A stretch of 13,471 nt of DNA, taken from a virus. Position numbers and translations under genes: made by a program. The DNA is taken from the UHGV virus genome UHGV-0358078; one strand, 5' to 3'. Below are positions 6,999 to 13,347 of this stretch, piece by piece. The notes beneath the pieces are model-generated. The model had not been told where the DNA came from and made no database searches. It saw nothing but the letters and a program-made list of their open reading frames with translations. Positions within the stretch are counted from its first letter, which is position 1. Every line of letters begins with the position of its first letter.

Positions 6999-7021
6999 GT
7001 GTAAAATGGGAGTTAAACAAA

Positions 7022-7612
7022 ATGGCTGAACGTTGGACTAAAGAAGGTATTATTGAAACCAAAACGGATTTAGAAGGCGGGTACGTCAACGACCCTGACG
7101 ACTTAGGTGCAGAAACGAACCACGGTATCACGGTAACGACTGCACGTGAGTACGGTTATAAAGGGAAAATGAAAGACCTTACCCGTGCTCAAGCTTTTGA
7201 CATTTACGATCGTGGTTGGTGGAAGAAACTCAAACTCGATGAGATTTTCGCTATCTCGCCTTTACTGGCTGACCGGATGTTTGATTTCGGAATTAACGCA
7301 GGTCGTGCCAACTGCGTGAAATCGCTACAGCGTATTCTCAACGTGTTGAACAACGAAGGTAAACTCTACGCGGACATCGATGCTGACGGTGGAATGGGGC
7401 CTAAAACGCTGGGTGCGTTGAACGCGTACCTGAAATACCGTAAAGATGAAGGGCTAAGCATTTTAATCTTTGCGTTAATCTCGCACCAAGTAACTTACTA
7501 CACGGAAATCTCCGAGAAACGTAAGCGAAACGAGAAATACACCTACGGCTGGTACGGCCGCGTGTTCAGAGAAATGGCAGATTATGCGGTAAAAGCGGGG
7601 TTAGTAAAATGA
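7022..7612 (+). CDS. Endolysin, GH108-type N-terminal domain plus PG_binding_3-like C-terminal domain
   Basis: ATG at 7022 with GGGAG upstream. N-terminal EGGYVNDPDDLGAETNHGIT matches the GH108 signature (EGGY…DPxD…GGxTxxGIT). Downstream FDFGINAGR…LQRIL…DADGGMGPKTLGAL matches the usual C-terminal peptidoglycan-binding domain of this family. No N-terminal signal or SAR segment. Confidence 0.85.
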   Translation: MAERWTKEGIIETKTDLEGGYVNDPDDLGAETNHGITVTTAREYGYKGKMKDLTRAQAFDIYDRGWWKKLKLDEIFAISPLLADRMFDFGINAGRANCVKSLQRILNVLNNEGKLYADIDADGGMGPKTLGALNAYLKYRKDEGLSILIFALISHQVTYYTEISEKRKRNEKYTYGWYGRVFREMADYAVKAGLVK

Positions 7613-7713
7613 ACTGGTTTGCTAAACTCTTAGCGTTATTGTGGAAAGCGTTAACGTCTGGTCGAAAACGTAAAGACGAAAAACGTGGGCAAGAATTCTT
7701 CTGGTTTTTGTAA
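7609..7713 (+). CDS. Candidate small ORF (34 aa), amphipathic N-terminus and basic centre; not in the ORF track
   Basis: ATG at 7609 overlaps the endolysin stop (ATGA at 7609-7612); GGGG lies 8 nt upstream. Translation MNWFAKLLALLWKALTSGRKRKDEKRGQEFFWFL, stop TAA 7711-7713. Fills the gap between the endolysin and the next gene. Too short for a conventional transmembrane holin. Confidence 0.35.
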   Translation: MNWFAKLLALLWKALTSGRKRKDEKRGQEFFWFL

Positions 7714-7728
7714 GGAAAGGTGTGGGTA

Positions 7729-8394
7729 ATGGAGAAGCTTCAATATAAACGTTTAGATAATAAGTGGTTTGTATTAACGGAGGATTACCATTATCCGTTT
7801 ACGTTACGTGAGATTTATCACGACCACGTACACTTAGACCGTGCGGTTTATTTAACCGGTGTATTACCTGACACGCAACTGTGGTTAACCGCTCCGAAAG
7901 GGTTCGTTACCGATTTAGCGTCAATTCCTGAACACCTCCAGGGAATTTTCCATCCTGACGGACCGTGGGCACCTGCGGCCTGCATTCACGACTTACTCTA
8001 TCAAAAATGTAACACGGAGCGTAGCTATCCCATGACACCGGGTGGTAACGTTTCGCGTATTATCGATAAAGAGTTCTCTGACTTAACATTCCTTCGTATT
8101 ATGCAGTCGTTGGAAATCTCGCCGTATATCTGCCAAACGTTTTATAAAGCCGTGGCGGAGTTCGGTTGGGATGCTTACGTAGACCCTAACGCGAAGCCGT
8201 CTTATACCACTAACGACTACCGTACGTTAGATTACAATCGAAACTATTTGTTCGTTCGCGAGTTTAAGGAACCCGCTATTCCTGACCACGAACGTGTTGA
8301 TATCACCACAGGTTGTCCCGTTAATGTCAAATACCTGAACATCAAACGGGCTTTTCTGTCTGGGAGGGAAGATGTTTCATCCAAATCCGAGTAA
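7729..8394 (+). CDS. DUF1353-like protein (221 aa)
   Basis: ORF track starts at GTG 7720; the in-frame ATG at 7729 follows AAGGAAAGGTG. GFVTDLASIP…ACIHDLLY resembles the (G)xxTDxASIP…HDxxY signature I associate with DUF1353; recalled from memory, not searched. No hydrophobic segment. Confidence 0.7.
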   Translation: MEKLQYKRLDNKWFVLTEDYHYPFTLREIYHDHVHLDRAVYLTGVLPDTQLWLTAPKGFVTDLASIPEHLQGIFHPDGPWAPAACIHDLLYQKCNTERSYPMTPGGNVSRIIDKEFSDLTFLRIMQSLEISPYICQTFYKAVAEFGWDAYVDPNAKPSYTTNDYRTLDYNRNYLFVREFKEPAIPDHERVDITTGCPVNVKYLNIKRAFLSGREDVSSKSE

Positions 8395-8887
8395 CTTTAA
8401 ACTCAAAGAGTTAGTACCACAATCGTACATCGCCAAATACGGTGATTCTGCAATTCGGTTTATGAACCCGTTGTTAATGATTTCGCTACAACAGATTCGT
8501 AACCGTTTCGGCAGAATGGTGATTAACTCCTCTGCTGCGCAACAGCGTGGCCTAAGAACCTTAGACTTTTTCATCAACCAAGAAAAGCCTAAGGGTGGTA
8601 ACTATAAACAACGTGCTTTACAACTCTACTCTGATTCAGGGAGTCAGCACAAGTTCGGTAATGCGTTTGACGCAACGCTTTTAGATTCGACAGTAAAACA
8701 AGTCCACGACTATATCGCCGCTAATCCTGACGAATTTCCGTTCATTCACTTTATCGAATGCGACATCAGTTGGTTACATATCGACGTTCGTAACCAACCG
8801 AATATCACGTTCTGGTCACCGAATCGCGGTACTGTGAAAGTCGTGAAACAAAGCCCTATCGATTGGAGCGCCTTAGTTAAAATCTAA
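8372..8887 (+). CDS. Peptidase M15-like (LAS-type zinc peptidase), putative peptidoglycan peptidase
   Basis: ATG at 8372 directly after GGGAGGG; overlaps the upstream gene by 23 nt. SQHKFGNAFD matches the SxHxxGxAxD zinc-ligand motif of M15/VanY-like peptidases, and WLHIDVR resembles the second His motif (xHVDVR). Followed by a palindrome and a bidirectional terminator. Confidence 0.7.
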   Translation: MFHPNPSNFKLKELVPQSYIAKYGDSAIRFMNPLLMISLQQIRNRFGRMVINSSAAQQRGLRTLDFFINQEKPKGGNYKQRALQLYSDSGSQHKFGNAFDATLLDSTVKQVHDYIAANPDEFPFIHFIECDISWLHIDVRNQPNITFWSPNRGTVKVVKQSPIDWSALVKI

Positions 8888-8939
8888 GCGCATAATCCTT
8901 AACTTAGGGTGATTATACCTTATTTTGTATAAACCGTCT

Positions 8940-8953
8940 TAGAACGCGTTCTA
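8940..8953. repeat. Perfect 14-bp palindrome TAGAACGCGTTCTA in the convergent intergenic region
   Basis: Positions 8940-8953 are self-complementary; followed by gcgcgtttt and then the bidirectional terminator at 8979-9003. Confidence 0.8.
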
Positions 8954-8978
8954 GCGCGTTTTACGGACAAAATAAACC

Positions 8979-9003
8979 TACCCTCCTGCTAAGCAGGAGG
9001 GTA
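8979..9003. terminator. Bidirectional terminator between convergent genes
   Basis: Stem taccctcctgc (8979-8989) / gcaggagggta (8993-9003) with a 3-5 nt loop. A/T-rich on both sides (aaataaacc upstream, tttattatt downstream), so it is followed by a U-tract in either direction. Confidence 0.75.
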
Positions 9004-9007
9004 TTTA

Positions 9008-9487
9008 TTATTCTACCGGGTGCAGCATAGTTCCGGTGTCTGGGATACTGCCTTCGTGACATCTGAAGAACGTTACGCCTTTACCTTCACCCGTTTTGTA
9101 GTTGACGGTGGAATACGCAAACGTTGGGGTTTTCGACAGTAACCCGTTTACACGGTAATAGCGCTCACCGGTAACGACGTTTAAGTTACCGTCCACCTTA
9201 CCTAACAGGTCTTTATAAAGTTGCGGAGATTCAATTTTACCTTCGTCCCATGTAGCGACCCAATTCGCCCCTGTATCCATGACTAACACCGAAAGGGGCA
9301 TCAGTTTTAGGCTAGACGGTACCGGTTTAAAATCAGCGAATTCTTGAGAAGCACCTGTACAGGTGTAAATGACCATATCGTGTTGGTCAACAGGTACGGT
9401 GGAGAACTGACCTTCTGCGTTCGGCTGAATAGCACAACCTGCCAATGTCATTACAAAAGCAACGACCACGAGAATGCGTTTTAGCAT
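9008..9487 (-). CDS. Predicted outer-membrane lipoprotein (159 aa)
   Basis: N-terminus MLKRILVVVAFVMTLAGC has a basic n-region, hydrophobic core and lipobox L-A-G-C, with Ala at +2 (no Asp retention signal). SD-like GGGTGAG upstream on the minus strand. Opposite in orientation to all neighbouring genes and followed by a bidirectional terminator. Confidence 0.8.
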   Translation of the reverse strand: MLKRILVVVAFVMTLAGCAIQPNAEGQFSTVPVDQHDMVIYTCTGASQEFADFKPVPSSLKLMPLSVLVMDTGANWVATWDEGKIESPQLYKDLLGKVDGNLNVVTGERYYRVNGLLSKTPTFAYSTVNYKTGEGKGVTFFRCHEGSIPDTGTMLHPVE

Positions 9488-9625
9488 AATCTCACCCTTA
9501 TTAAAATTAAGAAAAATTATTTTTTCAGGTTAGCGCCTACTGCCAACCGTCATATCTATATTTTAGGAAATGTCTAAAATAACTTTCTTATGCAATCCAC
9601 CCCTACCACTTACGAGGTAAAAAAG
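9488..9625. promoter_or_regulatory. Divergent intergenic region, probable promoter region for the lipoprotein gene (minus) and gene 9626 (plus)
   Basis: 138-nt AT-rich gap between divergently oriented starts. On the minus strand, TTGGCA (plus-strand tgccaa 9541-9546) is followed about 17 nt later by an A-rich -10-like hexamer. This is a weak match, not a confident sigma-70 promoter. Confidence 0.3.
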
Positions 9626-10162
9626 ATGGCTAAAGCCTTCAAACAACAGCTCATCGAAGCTGTAATTGCTAAAAACTCAGACACCGCTTCTAATCTGACG
9701 GTTGGTGATGTCGATTTTGGCGCTGTTGCTGAGTTCAGCGGAGACGCTGGTCGTAACACCAAAATTACGCTGACCGCCAAGGCAGAAAGCCAGAACTTCA
9801 AAGGCGAGAAAGAATTCCATTATATCCGTCTGGCTTCTCAAGACCTGATCGGTGCCAAAGCTTACGAACAAGCCGGTAGCCTCGAACTGGAAAACTCGGT
9901 CATTGTAACCAAACTGAACGAAGAAATGGTTACTAAAGGTTATGTCGATGACGAGTTTGCAGAGAGCGAACTGTCCATTGAGAAAACTGACGGGGATAGT
10001 GGTGCTAAAGTTTACACTGTCAAAGTAAGCGAAGGCCACATCAAATTCCTGGCTGGTACCATTGCCACCTTCACTTATTCCAACCCAGCTCCTGAGAAGG
10101 TAGCTCTGGACGGTCTGGAAGGTGAACTTGATGGCTTTACTGCACCGGGTGTCGGTGGCTAA
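9626..10162 (+). CDS. Paralog-family protein (178 aa), possible virion/structural protein
   Basis: ORF track starts at ATG 9590 with no SD. The in-frame ATG at 9626 has GAGG with an 8-nt spacer and gives an N-terminus colinear with the paralog at 10234 (MAKAFKQQLIEAVIAKN… vs MAATNQMMLVALYNAAN…). Both end in ELDGFTA. Followed by a G12-containing hairpin. Confidence 0.8.
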   Translation: MAKAFKQQLIEAVIAKNSDTASNLTVGDVDFGAVAEFSGDAGRNTKITLTAKAESQNFKGEKEFHYIRLASQDLIGAKAYEQAGSLELENSVIVTKLNEEMVTKGYVDDEFAESELSIEKTDGDSGAKVYTVKVSEGHIKFLAGTIATFTYSNPAPEKVALDGLEGELDGFTAPGVGG

Positions 10163-10171
10163 GTAAATTAA

Positions 10172-10198
10172 ATCGGGGGGGGGGGGACCTCCCCCGAT
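10172..10198 (+). terminator. Terminator-like hairpin containing a G12 homopolymer
   Basis: atcgggggggg (10172-10182) pairs with cctcccccgat (10188-10198), one G-U pair; followed by atttctc…tattttt. Starts 10 nt after the stop of gene 9626..10162. Confidence 0.6.
10175..10186. repeat. G12 homopolymer tract
   Basis: Twelve consecutive G at 10175-10186, inside the hairpin after gene 9626..10162. Confidence 0.9.
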
Positions 10199-10233
10199 AT
10201 TTCTCTAACTCGTATTTTTAAGGACCTAAGATA

Positions 10234-10764
10234 ATGGCCGCTACTAACCAGATGATGTTGGTCGCGCTTTATAATGCTGCTAACACTGAGCTACCACATC
10301 AGATTACTGATAAAGAAGTGTCCTTTGGTCTCCCTACTGCGCTGGAAGGCGAAAGTAAGAATACCAAAGTTACCATGACTGCACTACCGGGTTCTGAGAA
10401 TTTCAAAGGCGAAATCGAACTGCATTACGATCGTCTGGAGCCAGGTGTTGTAGGGCGTATTGAACTAACTGACGATCTGTCTCGTTGGGAAGATCAAAAC
10501 GAATTGCGCGCATGGTTACAATATTACATTAATAAAGTTAAACCGGACGATGCTATTCATCCAGCGGACGTTTCTTATTCTACCGAAGACCAGAAAGACG
10601 AACATGAAAACGTCACTCTGCGTACCGTGACGTGCACCGTTACCGAAAAGAACCTCCGTTATAAACCAGGTGTAATGGCAACTTTCGTAATTACACCGAA
10701 GGTTGTTGATAATCGTATTGACCTGGCCACCACCAACGGTGAGTTGGACGGTTTTACTGCTTAA
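10234..10764 (+). CDS. Paralog-family protein (176 aa), possible virion/structural protein
   Basis: ATG at 10234 with AAGGA 9 nt upstream. Shares the family motifs (…VSFGLPTALEGESKNTKVTMTALPGSENFKGEIELHYDRL…) and the C-terminal GELDGFTA. Followed by an 11-bp bidirectional terminator. Confidence 0.8.
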   Translation: MAATNQMMLVALYNAANTELPHQITDKEVSFGLPTALEGESKNTKVTMTALPGSENFKGEIELHYDRLEPGVVGRIELTDDLSRWEDQNELRAWLQYYINKVKPDDAIHPADVSYSTEDQKDEHENVTLRTVTCTVTEKNLRYKPGVMATFVITPKVVDNRIDLATTNGELDGFTA

Positions 10765-10802
10765 TCGCTAAGTCAACTACTATAACAAAAAAATAATAAA
10801 TT

Positions 10803-10829
10803 TACCTACCTCCTTTACGGAGGTAGGTA
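10803..10829. terminator. Bidirectional terminator between convergent genes
   Basis: Perfect 11-bp stem tacctacctcc (10803-10813) / ggaggtaggta (10819-10829), loop tttac. Flanked by aaaaaaataataaattt upstream and tttttattct downstream. Confidence 0.8.
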
Positions 10830-10833
10830 TTTT

Positions 10834-11508
10834 TTATTCTAATCCCATTTCCAGTGCAAGAGCACGGATAGTGTCGTAGTCACGCTGTTCAGCGTACTGA
10901 CGAATTTCACTTTTCTGGGCAGACATCGCGTTGTGTAGCTGTTGGTCACGTTTCACAATAGCCGCCAGCAACGTTTTACATTGTTCCAGCGTAAACGGTT
11001 CTATACGTGTATTCGACGTGTCCAACCAATAATCCGGTGCAGTTTCAGACTGGATATATTGGCCCAGCATCTGACGAGAGGTTTCGTCAGCTTGGAAATG
11101 ACGACCGTCAACTTCGATATAACCGTGACGCTGGTCTTCGTATCGGTGTTCAATTTCCAACATGATTTTCTGGATATCTAAATAGATATAGCGAGACGTC
11201 GAGCGCATATTCGAACGAATCTCATCCAGATCAATCTCCAGAACGTCAGTAATGAATTCTTTTGCTTTATTCAGTGTAAACTTCGACTCGATAGGAGACA
11301 TTTCGTAAGTTTGCATCTGAGCTAAAGCTTCTTCATCACTCATCCCTTCAATCAACTTATAGTGCAGTAAAGCACAGAACCCCGTACGTCCACGGTCTTC
11401 GTTACCTACACGCTCCATGTAGTTACCGTGACGGTCAATTGGGAGATCGTGAGCGAAATAACGCGCTCGAATCTCTTCTTTCGTTAAGCTTTTGTTAGAA
11501 GCAGACAT
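10834..11508 (-). CDS. Hypothetical protein (224 aa), last gene of the radical SAM operon
   Basis: ATG at 11508 (minus) with GGAG 7 nt upstream; overlaps the upstream gene's stop by 25 nt. Stop sits next to the terminator hairpin at 10803-10829. No motif recognised. Confidence 0.75.
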   Translation of the reverse strand: MSASNKSLTKEEIRARYFAHDLPIDRHGNYMERVGNEDRGRTGFCALLHYKLIEGMSDEEALAQMQTYEMSPIESKFTLNKAKEFITDVLEIDLDEIRSNMRSTSRYIYLDIQKIMLEIEHRYEDQRHGYIEVDGRHFQADETSRQMLGQYIQSETAPDYWLDTSNTRIEPFTLEQCKTLLAAIVKRDQQLHNAMSAQKSEIRQYAEQRDYDTIRALALEMGLE

Positions 11509-12050
11509 TCTTCTTCTCCAACCATACCTAATTCTTGCAGCAAGCCAAAATCAATCAACTGGAAGGTTTCAGAGAGATCGTTTGACCACACCACGTTTGC
11601 AATGTCGCGTTCTTCATCCGTTAACTGTGGTAACACATTTTCGTTGAACGTCTGATGCTCTACGTAATACGCATCGTAGATAGACGTGGAACGTAAGCAA
11701 CGGATCGGCATACGCGGGAAAGACACCGCTAATGCAGCAATAGATGCGCTACTCGGATTCTCCGCAGAATAACGAAGCAATTCGATCTTGTGGCGTGGAT
11801 AGTCCAGTACGCGTTGCTCGAAACCCGGATTACGTTTTTCGATTTCCACAACGGACTCATGGCCTGTTTCTGTACAGTAAACGGGAATCATCACGTTTAG
11901 CCCGTACTTAATTAACAGGGGTTTAATCTCATCTGTAAAGTCTTCGCCGGGGATAATGGCGTGGACGTTATAGAGTTTATGTTTGCGCAGAAAACGCTCA
12001 ACCAGGTGGAGTTTACGCTTCGTAAAATTGTGGATCAGAATTGATTTCAT
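11484..12050 (-). CDS. Hypothetical protein (188 aa), radical SAM operon
   Basis: ORF track begins at ATG 12074 with no SD. The in-frame ATG at 12050 is preceded by GAGG with a 6-nt spacer, which also shortens the overlap with the radical SAM gene to 38 nt. No P-loop or PP-loop motif. Function unknown. Confidence 0.7.
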   Translation of the reverse strand: MKSILIHNFTKRKLHLVERFLRKHKLYNVHAIIPGEDFTDEIKPLLIKYGLNVMIPVYCTETGHESVVEIEKRNPGFEQRVLDYPRHKIELLRYSAENPSSASIAALAVSFPRMPIRCLRSTSIYDAYYVEHQTFNENVLPQLTDEERDIANVVWSNDLSETFQLIDFGLLQELGMVGEEECLLLTKA

Positions 12051-13347
12051 TATTTGCCTCAGTAGGTTGTGCATTTAACGCACGTTTAGCTTGCTCACGC
12101 TCACGCGTACATTTCGGACAGTAACAAACAGACGAATCGTGCAGAGACGATGCGTGGACGGTACCCGTACGTTGACGCCAGTATTCTGCCGCCATCAGTT
12201 TTGCAGTCGTCCAACCACATTGACGTCGTTCAGCGTGGTACGCCTTACGGTCTTCCAGTGTCCCTTCACCGTTTTCGTAGGAAGCGGCTGCACAGCTCCC
12301 ACAACCGTGTTTCATCGGACAGCCTAAGCACGTTTCAGGATAGTTGGTGTATTGCGTCTGAATCTCTTCCAGCAGTTTCCCGCCGTCTAAGCTAACAAAC
12401 TCACGACCGACTAACTCAAACACCGCAGAGCGTGACGTTACCGTTGACATGAATCGGTTACAACCATACACCTTACGGTCAAAACCTAAGCAGGTCATAA
12501 ACGTCAACGTCCCACAGAACGGACGTAAACGTTCAGGGTTATAACGGTGCGTGTCGTCGTACAGCAGTTTATCACGCCAATCTGGGTCCCAAATCTGACG
12601 GAAATCCAGACCTTCAGGAATGATGTGGGACAACACGTTACGTGGATTGGTGTGCAGCCCTTTCTCAATCCAATAATCCATCACCTCGATCATCTGCAAC
12701 GCAATATCCGTTGCCATGCTCCGTGGAAGGATATCTTCGTACGTCACGTTACCTGAAATCGTACCGCCACCGGCAATATCAATTAACGACTTCATACTCG
12801 CCGCGTAATGCGGTAAGGTTTCGGTCGTGAAGGTTGCCTTGATACCCAGTTCGGCAATCCCCACTTCTTTTAAGTAGTTATAGCCACGAACGGCGGCTTC
12901 GTAAGAACCCTGACGCGTCGTTGTAAAAATACGATAGCGGTCATGAACTTCTGGCAACCCGTCGATAGACACACCGATGGAGAGTTTGTCTTTCCAACGC
13001 TCAACAATCTCACGGTTTAACGGACGGTCTAACAACGTCCCGTTCGTGGAGATACTGAACATATACGGACGATTATGCTCCTTACACAGCTGTTCTGCGG
13101 TTTCAAACGCCGCTAACAACAGTTTCGGTTGCATAAAAGGTTCGCCACCGATGATATCAATAATGACGTCGATGTTCGGAATATCTTTATCACGCTCAAA
13201 ACAGGCGTGTAAGAAATCCACGATATCCGCCGCTTTGTTATTACGCGGATACTTACGTTCGTAACAATACTCACAATCTAAGTTACAAGACAGGTTCGTT
13301 ACCACCTGGTAAGTACGTTGTGAACGTGGTGCTTCATTATTGCTCAT
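12013..13347 (-). CDS. Radical SAM enzyme with C-terminal SPASM-type Cys-rich domain (anSME-like architecture)
   Basis: CNLDCEYC (CX3CX2C) at residues 21-28; IGGEPF SAM-binding motif; STNGTLL and SIDG…HDRYR motifs typical of SPASM-family radical SAM enzymes. C-terminal clusters CGTLTFMTC…C and CLGCPMKHGCGSC (CX2CX5CX2C), plus a further CYCPKC. ATG at 13347 with AGGA 9 nt upstream and an in-frame stop three codons upstream. Confidence 0.9.
   Translation of the reverse strand: MSNNEAPRSQRTYQVVTNLSCNLDCEYCYERKYPRNNKAADIVDFLHACFERDKDIPNIDVIIDIIGGEPFMQPKLLLAAFETAEQLCKEHNRPYMFSISTNGTLLDRPLNREIVERWKDKLSIGVSIDGLPEVHDRYRIFTTTRQGSYEAAVRGYNYLKEVGIAELGIKATFTTETLPHYAASMKSLIDIAGGGTISGNVTYEDILPRSMATDIALQMIEVMDYWIEKGLHTNPRNVLSHIIPEGLDFRQIWDPDWRDKLLYDDTHRYNPERLRPFCGTLTFMTCLGFDRKVYGCNRFMSTVTSRSAVFELVGREFVSLDGGKLLEEIQTQYTNYPETCLGCPMKHGCGSCAAASYENGEGTLEDRKAYHAERRQCGWTTAKLMAAEYWRQRTGTVHASSLHDSSVCYCPKCTREREQAKRALNAQPTEANNEINSDPQFYEA

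What the first reader, a model, noticed from the sequence alone, without database searches (positions are those of the whole stretch)
8940..9625. Oppositely oriented outer-membrane lipoprotein gene: moron-like, candidate superinfection-exclusion or envelope-modifying factor
A single minus-strand gene sits between plus-strand blocks, with a bidirectional terminator at its 3' end and a divergent AT-rich region at its 5' end. It encodes a protein with a classical lipoprotein signal peptide (lipobox LAGC, Ala at +2, so outer-membrane sorting under E. coli rules). Phage-encoded outer-membrane lipoproteins such as T5 Llp and the Cor proteins block receptors to exclude superinfecting phage. At 159 aa, not proline-rich and with no C-terminal transmembrane domain, it does not fit o-spanin or u-spanin. 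A lysozyme-inhibitor-like role is a weaker alternative.
Basis: partly seen in the sequence, partly recalled or inferred. Interest (0 to 1): 0.6.

Follow-up and report, generated by a model that had tools for sequence, protein, structure and literature searches.

The report
Jumbo-phage outer-membrane barrel lipoprotein
The region holds a real, separately transcribed gene for an outer-membrane lipoprotein that is conserved in SPN3US-like giant phages, is not part of the virus particle and belongs to no characterised family, so it is a reasonable but untested candidate for a factor that protects the infected cell's envelope.

Summary
ORF 9008-9487 (-) encodes a 159-aa protein with a lipoprotein signal peptide (lipobox LAGC, Cys18, Ala at +2). 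It lies between a bidirectional terminator hairpin (8979-9003) and an AT-rich divergent intergenic region.

It is the orthologue of Salmonella phage SPN3US gp159 and Erwinia phage Asesino gp174 (phrog_9559, function unknown). The lipobox and two further cysteines are kept in all 24 homologues, and dN/dS is about 0.09. The predicted fold is a generic small all-beta barrel.

It is absent from the published SPN3US virion proteome. It is unlikely to be the o-spanin, because these phages carry a separate pair of adjacent genes (membrane-anchored protein plus lipoprotein) elsewhere.

"Moron" is only partly apt. The gene sits at the same locus in all 56 related phage records, has ordinary GC content, and has a conserved phiKZ-type TATG promoter motif rather than a convincing sigma-70 promoter. 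In distant relatives it runs in the same direction as the neighbouring head genes. Between close relatives, however, the whole unit is a divergence island (66-73% against 85-97% DNA identity).

No test places it in the Llp, Cor, MliC/PliC or Spackle families. An exclusion or envelope-protection role is the best guess (about 0.3), not a finding.

The parts
9008..9487 (-). Lipoprotein coding sequence, 159 aa including the signal peptide. Orthologue of SPN3US gp159 (SPN3US_0159) and Asesino gp174; PHROG phrog_9559.
   Evidence: (phrog_9559, E 3e-71). dN/dS is about 0.09.
9434..9487 (-). Signal peptide residues 1-17 plus the lipid-attachment Cys18. The lipobox LAGC is 9445..9434. Ala19 at +2 is 9431-9433.
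   Evidence: A lipobox cysteine is kept in 24 of 24 homologues, and +2 is never Asp.
9053..9406 (-). Predicted all-beta barrel domain (residues about 28-145, about 10 strands). The invariant Cys43 (9359-9361) and Cys143 (9059-9061) lie in the second and the last strand. The invariant motif G107-x-R109-x-Y111-R112 is also here.
   Evidence: AlphaFold2 model: mean pLDDT 78.8, most of the core above 85. Alignments A1 and A2.
8979..9003 (.). Bidirectional intrinsic-terminator-like hairpin (11-bp stem, 3-nt loop, T-runs on both strands), 5 nt after the stop codon.
   Evidence: Equivalent hairpins in relatives.
9549..9555 (-). ATATGAC, containing a phiKZ-type TATG promoter motif (TATG 9554..9551). 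If it works as in phiKZ, transcription starts at G9551, 64 nt upstream of the ATG.
   Evidence: The same TATGAC motif lies 53-65 nt upstream of the ATG in SPN3US, Asesino, L017 and L018 (ATATGAC in all but L017). TATG defines phiKZ late promoters (PMC4666361). TATGA and TATGAC are enriched in promoter-sense intergenic gaps of SPN3US.
9488..9625 (.). AT-rich (GC 0.33) divergent intergenic region. It carries two back-to-back TATG motifs, one for the lipoprotein gene and one at 9589-9592 (+) for the DUF7941 head-protein gene, whose likely true start is 9626.
   Evidence: SPN3US gp160 is an abundant head protein.
8940..8953 (.). Perfect 14-bp palindrome TAGAACGCGTTCTA, between the end of the M15-like gene and the terminator. 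Its role is unknown.
   Evidence: The identical sequence is at the equivalent place in Asesino and L018.
8800..9600 (.). Divergence island covering the whole lipoprotein transcription unit when compared with a close relative (L017).
   Evidence: 66-73% DNA identity here against 85-97% in most of the flanks. Protein identity is 72% against 86-96% for the neighbours.

Best explanation
What it is (shown or strongly inferred):
- A genuine monocistronic gene of an SPN3US-like (Chimalliviridae-type) jumbo phage.
- Its product would be exported by Sec, lipidated at Cys18 and cleaved by signal peptidase II. Ala at +2 predicts sorting by Lol to the inner leaflet of the outer membrane.
- A tether of about 10 residues holds a folded all-beta barrel of about 115 residues just beneath the outer membrane. 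The barrel is probably stapled by a Cys43-Cys143 disulfide.
- The gene is probably transcribed by the phage's own RNA polymerase from a TATG-type promoter (middle or late class) and ends at a bidirectional terminator.
- The protein is not built into virions.

What it most likely does (inferred, not shown):
- It binds a target at the periplasmic face of the outer membrane of the infected cell. The target could be a host envelope protein used for phage entry, or a component of an incoming particle.
- This would block further infection and/or stop released progeny being wasted on cell debris.
- It would work like T5 Llp or Cor, but with an unrelated fold and family.
For: Lipoprotein identity:
- Lipobox, charge and hydrophobic core are present and conserved in 24 of 24 homologues. 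All have two further cysteines (three in P0028), and +2 is never Asp.

Real gene: dN/dS is about 0.09.

Folded barrel: AlphaFold2 model with most of the core above pLDDT 85.

Not a virion protein: gp159 is absent from the SPN3US particle mass-spectrometry table, while its neighbour gp160 is abundant (PMC5105663 Table S4).

Not the spanin:
- SPN3US 180017-180487 encodes a protein with an N-terminal transmembrane segment and a Pro-rich tail. The adjacent 180497-180976 encodes a lipoprotein.
- The same pair is Asesino gp223/gp224, and the lipoprotein of the pair is found in 73 phage records.

Phage-type promoter:
- Conserved TATGAC (ATATGAC in four of five).
- In SPN3US intergenic gaps TATGA occurs at 1.18 per kb in promoter sense, 0.18 per kb in the other orientation and 0.41 per kb in the rest of the genome, P = 1.7e-5.
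- TATGAC also precedes the tail-sheath gene.

Role at the host or competitor interface:
- The whole unit is a divergence island between close relatives.
- The short tether places the barrel next to the outer membrane.
- Relatives of this phage occur as circular replicons of about 222 kb in complete E. coli and Enterobacter assemblies and in many Salmonella isolate assemblies. If that reflects persistent carriage, exclusion would pay.
Against: - There is no functional evidence of any kind.
- No homology to Llp, Cor or any exclusion protein. The PHROG scan hit only phrog_9559; Pfam, NCBIfam and a PDB profile search found nothing.
- Classical exclusion genes of lytic phages (T5 llp, T4 imm and sp) are early genes (my own knowledge). 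The TATG promoter, and in L013 a gap of only 13 nt after a head-array gene, point to middle or late expression.
- SPN3US is reported to use flagella as its receptor (PMC11428620), so a simple masking of an outer-membrane receptor is not the obvious model.
- At greater distances the protein evolves at the same rate as its neighbours: 55-60% identity against 59-66% for the endolysin and the DUF1353 protein.
Confidence: 0.3

Rival explanations
1. Periplasmic inhibitor of a peptidoglycan hydrolase. It would work like the beta-barrel inhibitors MliC/PliC or like T4 Spackle. The barrel would bind the wall-degrading enzyme of an incoming phage tail, or restrain the phage's own hydrolases, protecting the infected cell from lysis from without or from premature lysis.
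For: - The gene lies in a cluster with two wall hydrolases: a GH108 muramidase (7022-7612) and an M15-like peptidase (8372-8887).
- In the distant locus L013 it is again next to the M15 gene.
- Foldseek matches an RB49 protein named as LprI-like lysozyme inhibitor.
- The layout is the same as in MliC: lipobox, short tether, a Y-x-C first strand and a cysteine in the last strand.
- Spackle shows that a periplasmic inhibitor of a tail lysozyme can give exclusion (PMC7677548).
Against: - The Pfam MliC model (PF09864) matches none of 16 members even at E 10.
- hhalign against an MliC alignment gives 41% probability and aligns only the signal peptide and the Y-x-C.
- The MliC loop motifs are not conserved here (my own knowledge of those motifs, read).
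- Many unrelated barrels score as well or better.
- The M15 gene and the lipoprotein gene do not share a distribution. Twenty-seven Erwinia phage records have the lipoprotein but only 8 have the M15 gene. CR5, EarlPhillipIV and Phobos have the M15 gene and, as far as the listed rows show, no lipoprotein. Asesino lacks the M15 gene at the locus.
Confidence: 0.15
2. Lysis accessory factor. It would be an outer-membrane lipoprotein that takes part in, or times, the last step of lysis: an atypical o-spanin, a partner of the spanin pair, or a regulator of outer-membrane disruption.
For: - It sits beside the endolysin gene and a conserved 34-aa cationic amphipathic ORF that overlaps the endolysin stop codon.
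- The promoter type suggests middle or late expression.
- It is an outer-membrane lipoprotein with conserved cysteines, as o-spanins are.
- Lysis genes of nucleus-forming jumbo phages are poorly defined. The 2026 review mentions lysis once and spanins not at all.
Against: - It is a well-folded barrel and not Pro-rich (6.4%).
- No i-spanin-like gene is adjacent or overlapping.
- A better spanin-like pair is conserved elsewhere in the same genomes, in 73 records including those that carry this gene.
- In L010 and L014 the gene has no lysis gene within 8 kb.
Confidence: 0.12
3. A small-ligand-binding or host-physiology-modulating barrel. Examples would be binding a lipid, lipopolysaccharide or peptidoglycan fragment, or interfering with envelope stress signalling, motility or vesicle formation. 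Entry of other phages would not be the direct target.
For: - The invariant R109, Y111 and R112 in one strand, and the Gly-rich loop G133-x-G135-x-G137, could form a site for an anionic ligand.
- The segment ESPQLYKDLLGK is nearly identical across Salmonella and Erwinia phages, which suggests a highly conserved partner.
Against: - The matches are weak and generic, and no pocket analysis was possible.
- The local divergence island fits a partner that varies between strains better than it fits an invariant small molecule.
Confidence: 0.2
4. A virion or assembly component, for example one that anchors assembling particles to the envelope.
For: - The gene is embedded in the DUF7941 head-paralogue gene array.
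- In distant relatives it runs in the same direction as those genes and is probably co-transcribed with them.
Against: - gp159 is not detected in SPN3US virions, heads or tailless particles.
- A lipidated outer-membrane protein in the periplasm is separated from assembly in the cytoplasm.
Confidence: 0.04

Closest known systems
Salmonella phage SPN3US gp159 (SPN3US_0159 / YP_009153453) and Erwinia phage Asesino gp174; PHROG family phrog_9559, labelled 'Lipoprotein' in UniProt
   Same: True orthologues: 55-60% identity, the same locus and neighbours, the same orientation, the same promoter motif and the same terminator.
   Different: Nothing material differs. The family has no assigned function. 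The window's exact protein is in NCBI only as 'hypothetical protein' from Salmonella and E. coli assemblies.
T5 Llp and the Cor proteins of T1, phi80 and N15 (phage outer-membrane lipoproteins that inactivate the FhuA receptor)
   Same: A phage-encoded lipoprotein with outer-membrane sorting, made by a lytic phage and lying in or next to the structural gene region. The mature domain contains cysteines. These are plausible analogues for how it works (my own knowledge of the Llp and Cor literature).
   Different: There is no sequence or profile similarity. The mature part is about twice as long or more (141 aa against about 60-80). It is a barrel fold. It is not next to a known receptor-binding gene. 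SPN3US is reported to use flagella. The promoter is probably not early.
MliC/PliC lysozyme inhibitors (Pfam PF09864), including Brucella PhiA (PDB 7dpy) and Salmonella PliC (PDB 3oe3)
   Different: Not detectable by the Pfam model or by profile-profile comparison. It is longer, with about 10 strands against 8. The inhibitory loop motifs are not conserved. Many unrelated barrels score equally well.
T4 Spackle (gp61.3), a periplasmic inhibitor of the gp5 tail lysozyme
   Same: A possible functional analogue: a periplasmic, disulfide-bonded, phage-encoded protein that acts on incoming phage (PMC7677548).
   Different: Spackle is a soluble 75-residue alpha-helical bundle, is not a lipoprotein and is an early gene. 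The fold is unrelated.
o-spanins (lambda Rz1, T4 PseT.3)
   Same: An outer-membrane lipoprotein of a lytic phage with conserved periplasmic cysteines.
   Different: It is folded, not Pro-rich, and has no partner i-spanin gene nearby. A separate spanin-like pair exists in these genomes.

Membership tests
Bacterial lipoprotein (signal peptidase II substrate) | Positively charged n-region, hydrophobic h-region of 7-22 residues, and a lipobox [LVI][ASTVI][GAS]C with Cys at about position 15-35 | tested here: met
   MLKR / ILVVVAFVMT / LAGC, Cys18. A lipobox cysteine is kept in 24 of 24 homologues.
Bacterial lipoprotein (signal peptidase II substrate) | A dedicated predictor (SignalP or LipoP) calls SPase II; lipidation and globomycin sensitivity are shown | not testable with these tools
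   No such predictor was available, and this needs experiment. Only weak N-terminal matches to lipoprotein models were found (LPAM_1 E 0.11; YgdI/YgdR E 0.05).
Outer-membrane-sorted lipoprotein (Lol rule of Enterobacteriaceae) | No Asp at position +2 after the lipidated Cys | tested here: met
   +2 is Ala here. Across the 24 homologues it is Ala, Val or Ser.
o-spanin (Rz1-like) | Short, Pro-rich periplasmic domain with little secondary structure | tested here: not met
   6.4% Pro. Confident barrel of about 10 strands, most of the core above pLDDT 85.
o-spanin (Rz1-like) | Gene embedded in, overlapping or adjacent to an i-spanin gene (N-terminal transmembrane segment plus coiled coil) on the same strand | tested here: not met
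   Both flanking genes are on the other strand. The adjacent pair, transmembrane protein plus lipoprotein, lies elsewhere in SPN3US and Asesino.
u-spanin (T1 gp11-like) | Lipobox at the N-terminus and a transmembrane segment at the C-terminus | tested here: not met
   The C-terminus EGSIPDTGTMLHPVE is hydrophilic and predicted disordered.
T5 Llp / Cor receptor-blocking lipoproteins | Sequence or profile homology to Llp or Cor | tested here: not met
T5 Llp / Cor receptor-blocking lipoproteins | Binds and inactivates the phage's own outer-membrane receptor | not testable with these tools
   Needs expression and adsorption assays. The reported SPN3US receptor is the flagellum.
MliC/PliC lysozyme inhibitors (PF09864) | Match to the family profile | tested here: not met
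   None of 16 members match PF09864 at E up to 10. hhalign gives 41% probability, over the signal peptide and Y-x-C only.
MliC/PliC lysozyme inhibitors (PF09864) | Eight-stranded beta barrel with a disulfide | tested here: inconclusive
Moron (extra, independently transcribed gene in a phage genome) | Own promoter and terminator, separate from the flanking operons | tested here: met
   Terminator hairpin. Conserved TATG-type motif in the divergent intergenic region.
Moron (extra, independently transcribed gene in a phage genome) | Present in some close relatives and absent from others; atypical base composition; host-type promoter | tested here: not met
   All 56 records with a homologue are SPN3US-like jumbo phages, and the locus is the same in the relatives inspected. 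GC is 0.47 against 0.44 for the window. Sigma-70 matches are at chance level (2 found, 2.8 expected). The unit is, however, a divergence island.
Virion structural protein | Detected in purified particles | tested here: not met
   gp159 is absent from SPN3US Table S4, while gp155 and gp160 are present.

The most novel reading that the evidence does not exclude
The gp159 family would be the founding member of a structurally new class of exclusion factor in nucleus-forming jumbo phages. It would be an outer-membrane-tethered beta barrel that shuts the envelope entry route, for example a flagellum-associated or outer-membrane step, against further phage. This would help the 222-224 kb phage lineage persist as the plasmid-like replicon seen in E. 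coli, Enterobacter and Salmonella isolates.
Probability: 0.15. Interest if true: 0.65.

Novelty: new variant of a known kind. Interest (0 to 1): 0.4.

Why it matters
Almost nothing is known about how nucleus-forming jumbo phages deal with the host envelope. Their lysis genes, spanins and any exclusion systems are undefined; a 2026 review mentions lysis once and exclusion not at all.

This is a small, conserved, non-virion lipoprotein with a confident structural model. It has a clean single-gene transcription unit and orthologues in the genetically tractable phage SPN3US, so it is an easy entry point: one plasmid and one knockout would show whether it excludes phage, inhibits a wall hydrolase or takes part in lysis.

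If it is an exclusion factor, it would matter for designing phage cocktails with SPN3US-like phages. It could also help explain how this phage lineage persists in clinical and food isolates.

Tried and rejected
- A near-identity DNA search of the phage collection found nothing. Relatives were reached only at protein level.
- Sequence searches found no family. This covers Pfam, NCBIfam and a profile search of PDB sequences.
- The exhaustive profile search of 1.84 billion representative proteins found only 14, all of the same small family. Two or three are scrambled assembly artefacts.
- The afdb50 structure library was not available.
- MliC idea. The motif TGERYYR looked like the MliC 'SGARY' loop, but the profile-profile comparison did not support it.
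- M15 peptidase as an obligate partner. Rejected because the two genes have different distributions.
- Co-variation of lipoprotein alleles with the DUF4376 and hyp196 alleles. No consistent pattern in four comparisons.
- An upstream TTTAC-N15-TATG promoter class is clear in SPN3US. The lipoprotein promoters match it only with shifted spacing, so I rely only on the conserved TATGAC.
- Two papers are not held: the SPN3US infection proteomics time course (Weintraub 2019, J Virol) and the phiKZ transcription paper (Ceyssens 2014). Expression timing therefore could not be read from data.
- No literature on this family was found.
Full report
**1. The observation**

The window carries a 159-codon ORF at 9008..9487 on the minus strand. 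Plus-strand genes lie on both sides: the M15-like gene 8372..8887, and a DUF7941 head-protein gene whose likely true start is 9626.

The N-terminus MLKRILVVVAFVMTLAGC|A has charge +2, a 13-residue hydrophobic core, the lipobox LAGC with Cys18, and Ala at +2. A six-frame scan with a PROSITE-like lipobox rule found no other credible lipoprotein ORF in the window.

Five bases after the stop codon there is an 11-bp hairpin (8979-9003) with T-runs on both strands. The 5' intergenic region 9488-9625 has GC 0.33, against 0.47 for the gene and 0.44 for the window. The mature protein is 6.4% proline and ends in a hydrophilic tail.

SignalP and LipoP could not be run.

**2. Where it comes from**

No phage record is close at DNA level. 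The protein has homologues in 56 phage records. All are jumbo phages of about 200-250 kb infecting Salmonella, Escherichia, Proteus and Erwinia, related to SPN3US (Seoulvirus) and Asesino/phiEaH2 (Erskinevirus). It matches PHROG phrog_9559, function unknown, at E 3e-71.

The orthologues are SPN3US gp159 (SPN3US_0159) and Asesino gp174. The neighbourhood is the same in those phages:
- a GH108 endolysin;
- a DUF1353 protein;
- an M15-like peptidase (in SPN3US but not Asesino);
- the lipoprotein gene on the opposite strand;
- DUF7941 head-protein genes;
- a DUF4376 protein and radical-SAM genes on the opposite strand.

The family is very small: 17 clusters among 5.8 billion proteins, and 14 representatives among 1.84 billion.

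The exact protein of the window occurs on contigs of about 220-227 kb from Salmonella and E. coli isolate assemblies. DNA 94-95% identical to the window is deposited as a circular 'plasmid' of about 222 kb in complete genomes of E. coli strain 98232 and Enterobacter ludwigii.

**3. It is a real, constrained protein**

- In a 24-sequence alignment the lipid-attachment Cys, Cys43, Cys143, G73, R109, Y111, R112, S126, G133 and G135 are invariant.
- Every homologue has a lipobox, and all have two further cysteines in the mature part (three in P0028). None has Asp at +2.
- dN/dS is 0.09-0.10 against two closer relatives.
- The AlphaFold2 model built on 16 sequences has mean pLDDT 78.8, with most of the core (residues about 30-145) above 85. 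It shows a signal helix, a disordered tether (residues 14-25) and about ten beta strands. The two conserved cysteines lie in the second strand and the last strand. That is the position expected for a disulfide closing a barrel; this last step is my inference.

**4. What the fold says**

- Foldseek against the PDB finds nothing below E 0.02; the best hits are lipocalins.
- Against predicted viral structures, the model finds its own family and, weakly, other small phage lipoproteins. These are from phages Possum, Joad, PNJ1809-36, DIBBI and CBB, plus an RB49 protein named 'LprI-like lysozyme inhibitor'.
- Pfam, NCBIfam and a profile search of PDB sequences find nothing.
- I tested the MliC lead directly. 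I took E. coli mliC from the K-12 record, collected homologues, aligned them and ran a profile-profile comparison. The result was 41% probability, aligning only the signal peptide and the first Y-x-C.

The protein shares a layout with MliC (lipobox, tether, barrel, cysteine in the first and last strand). It cannot be filed as a member.

**5. Not a virion protein, and unlikely to be the spanin**

The SPN3US particle mass-spectrometry table lists gp155 and gp160 but not gp159, in four preparations (PMC5105663 Table S4).

A lipobox scan of the whole SPN3US genome found three good lipoprotein genes. One, at 180497-180976, directly follows a gene for a protein with an N-terminal transmembrane segment and a Pro-rich tail. 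The same pair is Asesino gp223/gp224. The lipoprotein of the pair is found in 73 phage records, a wider set than the gp159 family.

That adjacent pair is the canonical two-component spanin arrangement. The window's lipoprotein has no such partner, is folded and is not Pro-rich.

**6. Regulation**

The sigma-70 scan gives two weak matches where 2.8 are expected by chance.

Upstream of the gene, TATGAC (containing TATG; ATATGAC in four of the five) is conserved 53-65 nt before the ATG in the window, L018, L017, SPN3US and Asesino. The surrounding sequence has otherwise diverged.

In phiKZ, TATG with transcription starting at the G defines the late promoters used by the non-virion phage RNA polymerase (PMC4666361; PMC7598289).

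- In the window, TATG is rare: 18 per strand where about 53 would be expected from length alone. It occurs upstream of the head-gene array (5598), the head gene at 9626, the radical-SAM operon and the lipoprotein gene.
- In SPN3US intergenic gaps, TATGA occurs at 1.18 per kb in promoter-sense orientation. It occurs at 0.18 per kb in the other orientation and 0.41 per kb in the rest of the genome (P = 1.7e-5).
- TATGAC also precedes the tail-sheath gene.
- In the distant locus L010, the same 'terminator, TATGC, TTTATG' arrangement precedes both the lipoprotein gene and the next DUF7941 gene.
- In L013 the gene starts 13 nt after a gene of the head-array operon.

I infer transcription by the phage polymerase in the middle or late class, not from a host-type moron promoter. 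This is an inference from motifs. The published SPN3US proteome time course could not be read.

**7. Context in distant relatives**

In L010, L013 and L014 the lipoprotein gene runs in the same direction as its neighbours. These are DUF7941 genes in L010 and L013; in L014 the neighbours have no Pfam assignment. In L013 it converges on the M15 and DUF1353 genes. The opposite orientation is therefore a trait of the SPN3US/Asesino lineage and not of the family.

The M15 peptidase is not a constant companion:
- only 8 Erwinia phage records have it, against 27 with the lipoprotein;
- CR5, EarlPhillipIV and Phobos have the M15 gene and, as far as the listed rows show, no lipoprotein;
- Asesino lacks the M15 gene at the locus.

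**8. A divergence island**

Against a close relative (L017), DNA identity is 85-97% over most of 7000-8700 and 9800-10700. It is 66-73% across 8800-9600, which is exactly the terminator, gene and promoter.

Protein identity is 72%, against 96% for M15, 96% for DUF1353, 90% for the endolysin and 86% for the gp160-like protein. Both dN and dS are raised while dN/dS stays near 0.09. This points to exchange of an older allele rather than positive selection.

At greater distances the protein diverges like its neighbours. So the unit behaves as an exchangeable module, although it is never absent. This pattern is common for genes at the phage-host or phage-phage interface.

**9. Mechanism**

The shown and strongly inferred steps are:
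- export, lipidation and outer-membrane sorting;
- a barrel held on a short tether under the outer membrane;
- non-virion status;
- a phage-type promoter.

The function is inferred. My best single guess, at about 0.3, is an exclusion or entry-blocking factor that works like Llp or Cor but belongs to an unrelated family. The rivals and my estimates are:
- hydrolase inhibitor, 0.15;
- lysis accessory, 0.12;
- ligand-binding barrel or modulator of host physiology, 0.2;
- assembly or virion role, 0.04.

Points against the best guess:
- the probable non-early expression;
- the reported flagellar receptor of SPN3US (PMC11428620);
- the complete lack of homology to known exclusion proteins.

**10. 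Verdict**

The gene is an already catalogued but uncharacterised orphan family. It is best described as a structurally distinct variant of the known kind 'phage-encoded outer-membrane lipoprotein'.

Interest is moderate (0.4). It would not surprise a specialist. It is a clean and cheap experimental handle on the almost unexplored envelope biology of nucleus-forming jumbo phages.

Noticed in passing
window 7609-7713 (+): A 34-aa ORF overlaps the GH108 endolysin stop codon (ATGA). Its product is MNWFAKLLALLWKALTSGRKRKDEKRGQEFFWFL, which is amphipathic and strongly cationic. It is called as a gene in L017 and L018 and is conserved as Asesino gp172 (MKTNWFVTLMRAVGRALLFALRRKRHEKPEGGKA). It is a candidate membrane-active lysis peptide (holin-like or disruptin-like).
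   Followed up: partly
whole window; NZ_CP173450.1 (E. coli 98232, 221,873 bp, circular) and NZ_CP134650.1 (Enterobacter ludwigii, 222,441 bp): This SPN3US-related jumbo phage lineage is deposited as a 'plasmid' in complete bacterial genomes (94-95% identity to the window). It also occurs as contigs of about 220-227 kb in many Salmonella and E. coli isolate assemblies; the protein cluster has 308 members. This suggests carrier-state or plasmid-like persistence of a phage from a nucleus-forming family.
   Followed up: partly
window 8940-8953: A perfect 14-bp palindrome, TAGAACGCGTTCTA, lies between the M15-like gene and the lipoprotein terminator. It is identical at the equivalent position in Erwinia phage Asesino and in L018, although the flanks have diverged. 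It may be a second terminator or a protein-binding site.
   Followed up: partly
SPN3US NC_027402.1 180017-180976 (L007 33017-33976); Asesino gp223/gp224 (L019 952-1929): An adjacent pair of genes: a protein with an N-terminal transmembrane segment, a coiled-coil-like stretch and a Pro-rich tail, followed by a lipoprotein of about 157-159 aa. Both are annotated as hypothetical (phrog_8719 and phrog_8165). The lipoprotein is conserved in 73 jumbo-phage records. This is a likely unannotated two-component spanin.
   Followed up: partly
SPN3US genome, intergenic gaps (for example 1158, 64409, 92592, 109944, 168864, 196297): A clear promoter-like class, (A/T)-rich TTTAC, then 15 nt, then TATG, lies upstream of many non-structural genes. 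It resembles the phiKZ middle-promoter motif AAanTTACc at -24 combined with TATG at the start site.
   Followed up: partly
window 10800-11600 (DUF4376 gene 10834-11508 and ORF 11484-12074, both on the minus strand): A second local divergence island against L017: 53-77% DNA identity and 69% and 52% protein identity, where the neighbours are 85-96%. DUF4376 is a domain seen in tail-fibre-like proteins, but SPN3US gp161 and gp162 are not in the virion table.
   Followed up: no
window 9590-9625: The ATG at 9590 that opens the listed 190-aa ORF is part of the TATG promoter-like motif (9589-9592). The likely true start of the head-protein gene is ATG 9626, preceded by GAGG, which gives 178 aa, close to SPN3US gp160.
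   Followed up: yes
window 8372-8887 (+): The gp158-like protein carries the S-x-H-x-x-G-x-A-x-D motif (SQHKFGNAFD) of LAS/M15 peptidases, but Pfam detects it only weakly (Peptidase_M15_3, E 0.03). It has relatives in many Vibrio phages, where it is annotated as an endolysin. These jumbo phages therefore encode two wall hydrolases side by side.
   Followed up: partly
window 10172-10198: A run of 12 G inside a strong terminator-like hairpin (ATCGGGGGGGGGGGGACCTCCCCCGAT) lies between the two DUF7941 genes. Such a homopolymer could be prone to slippage.
   Followed up: no
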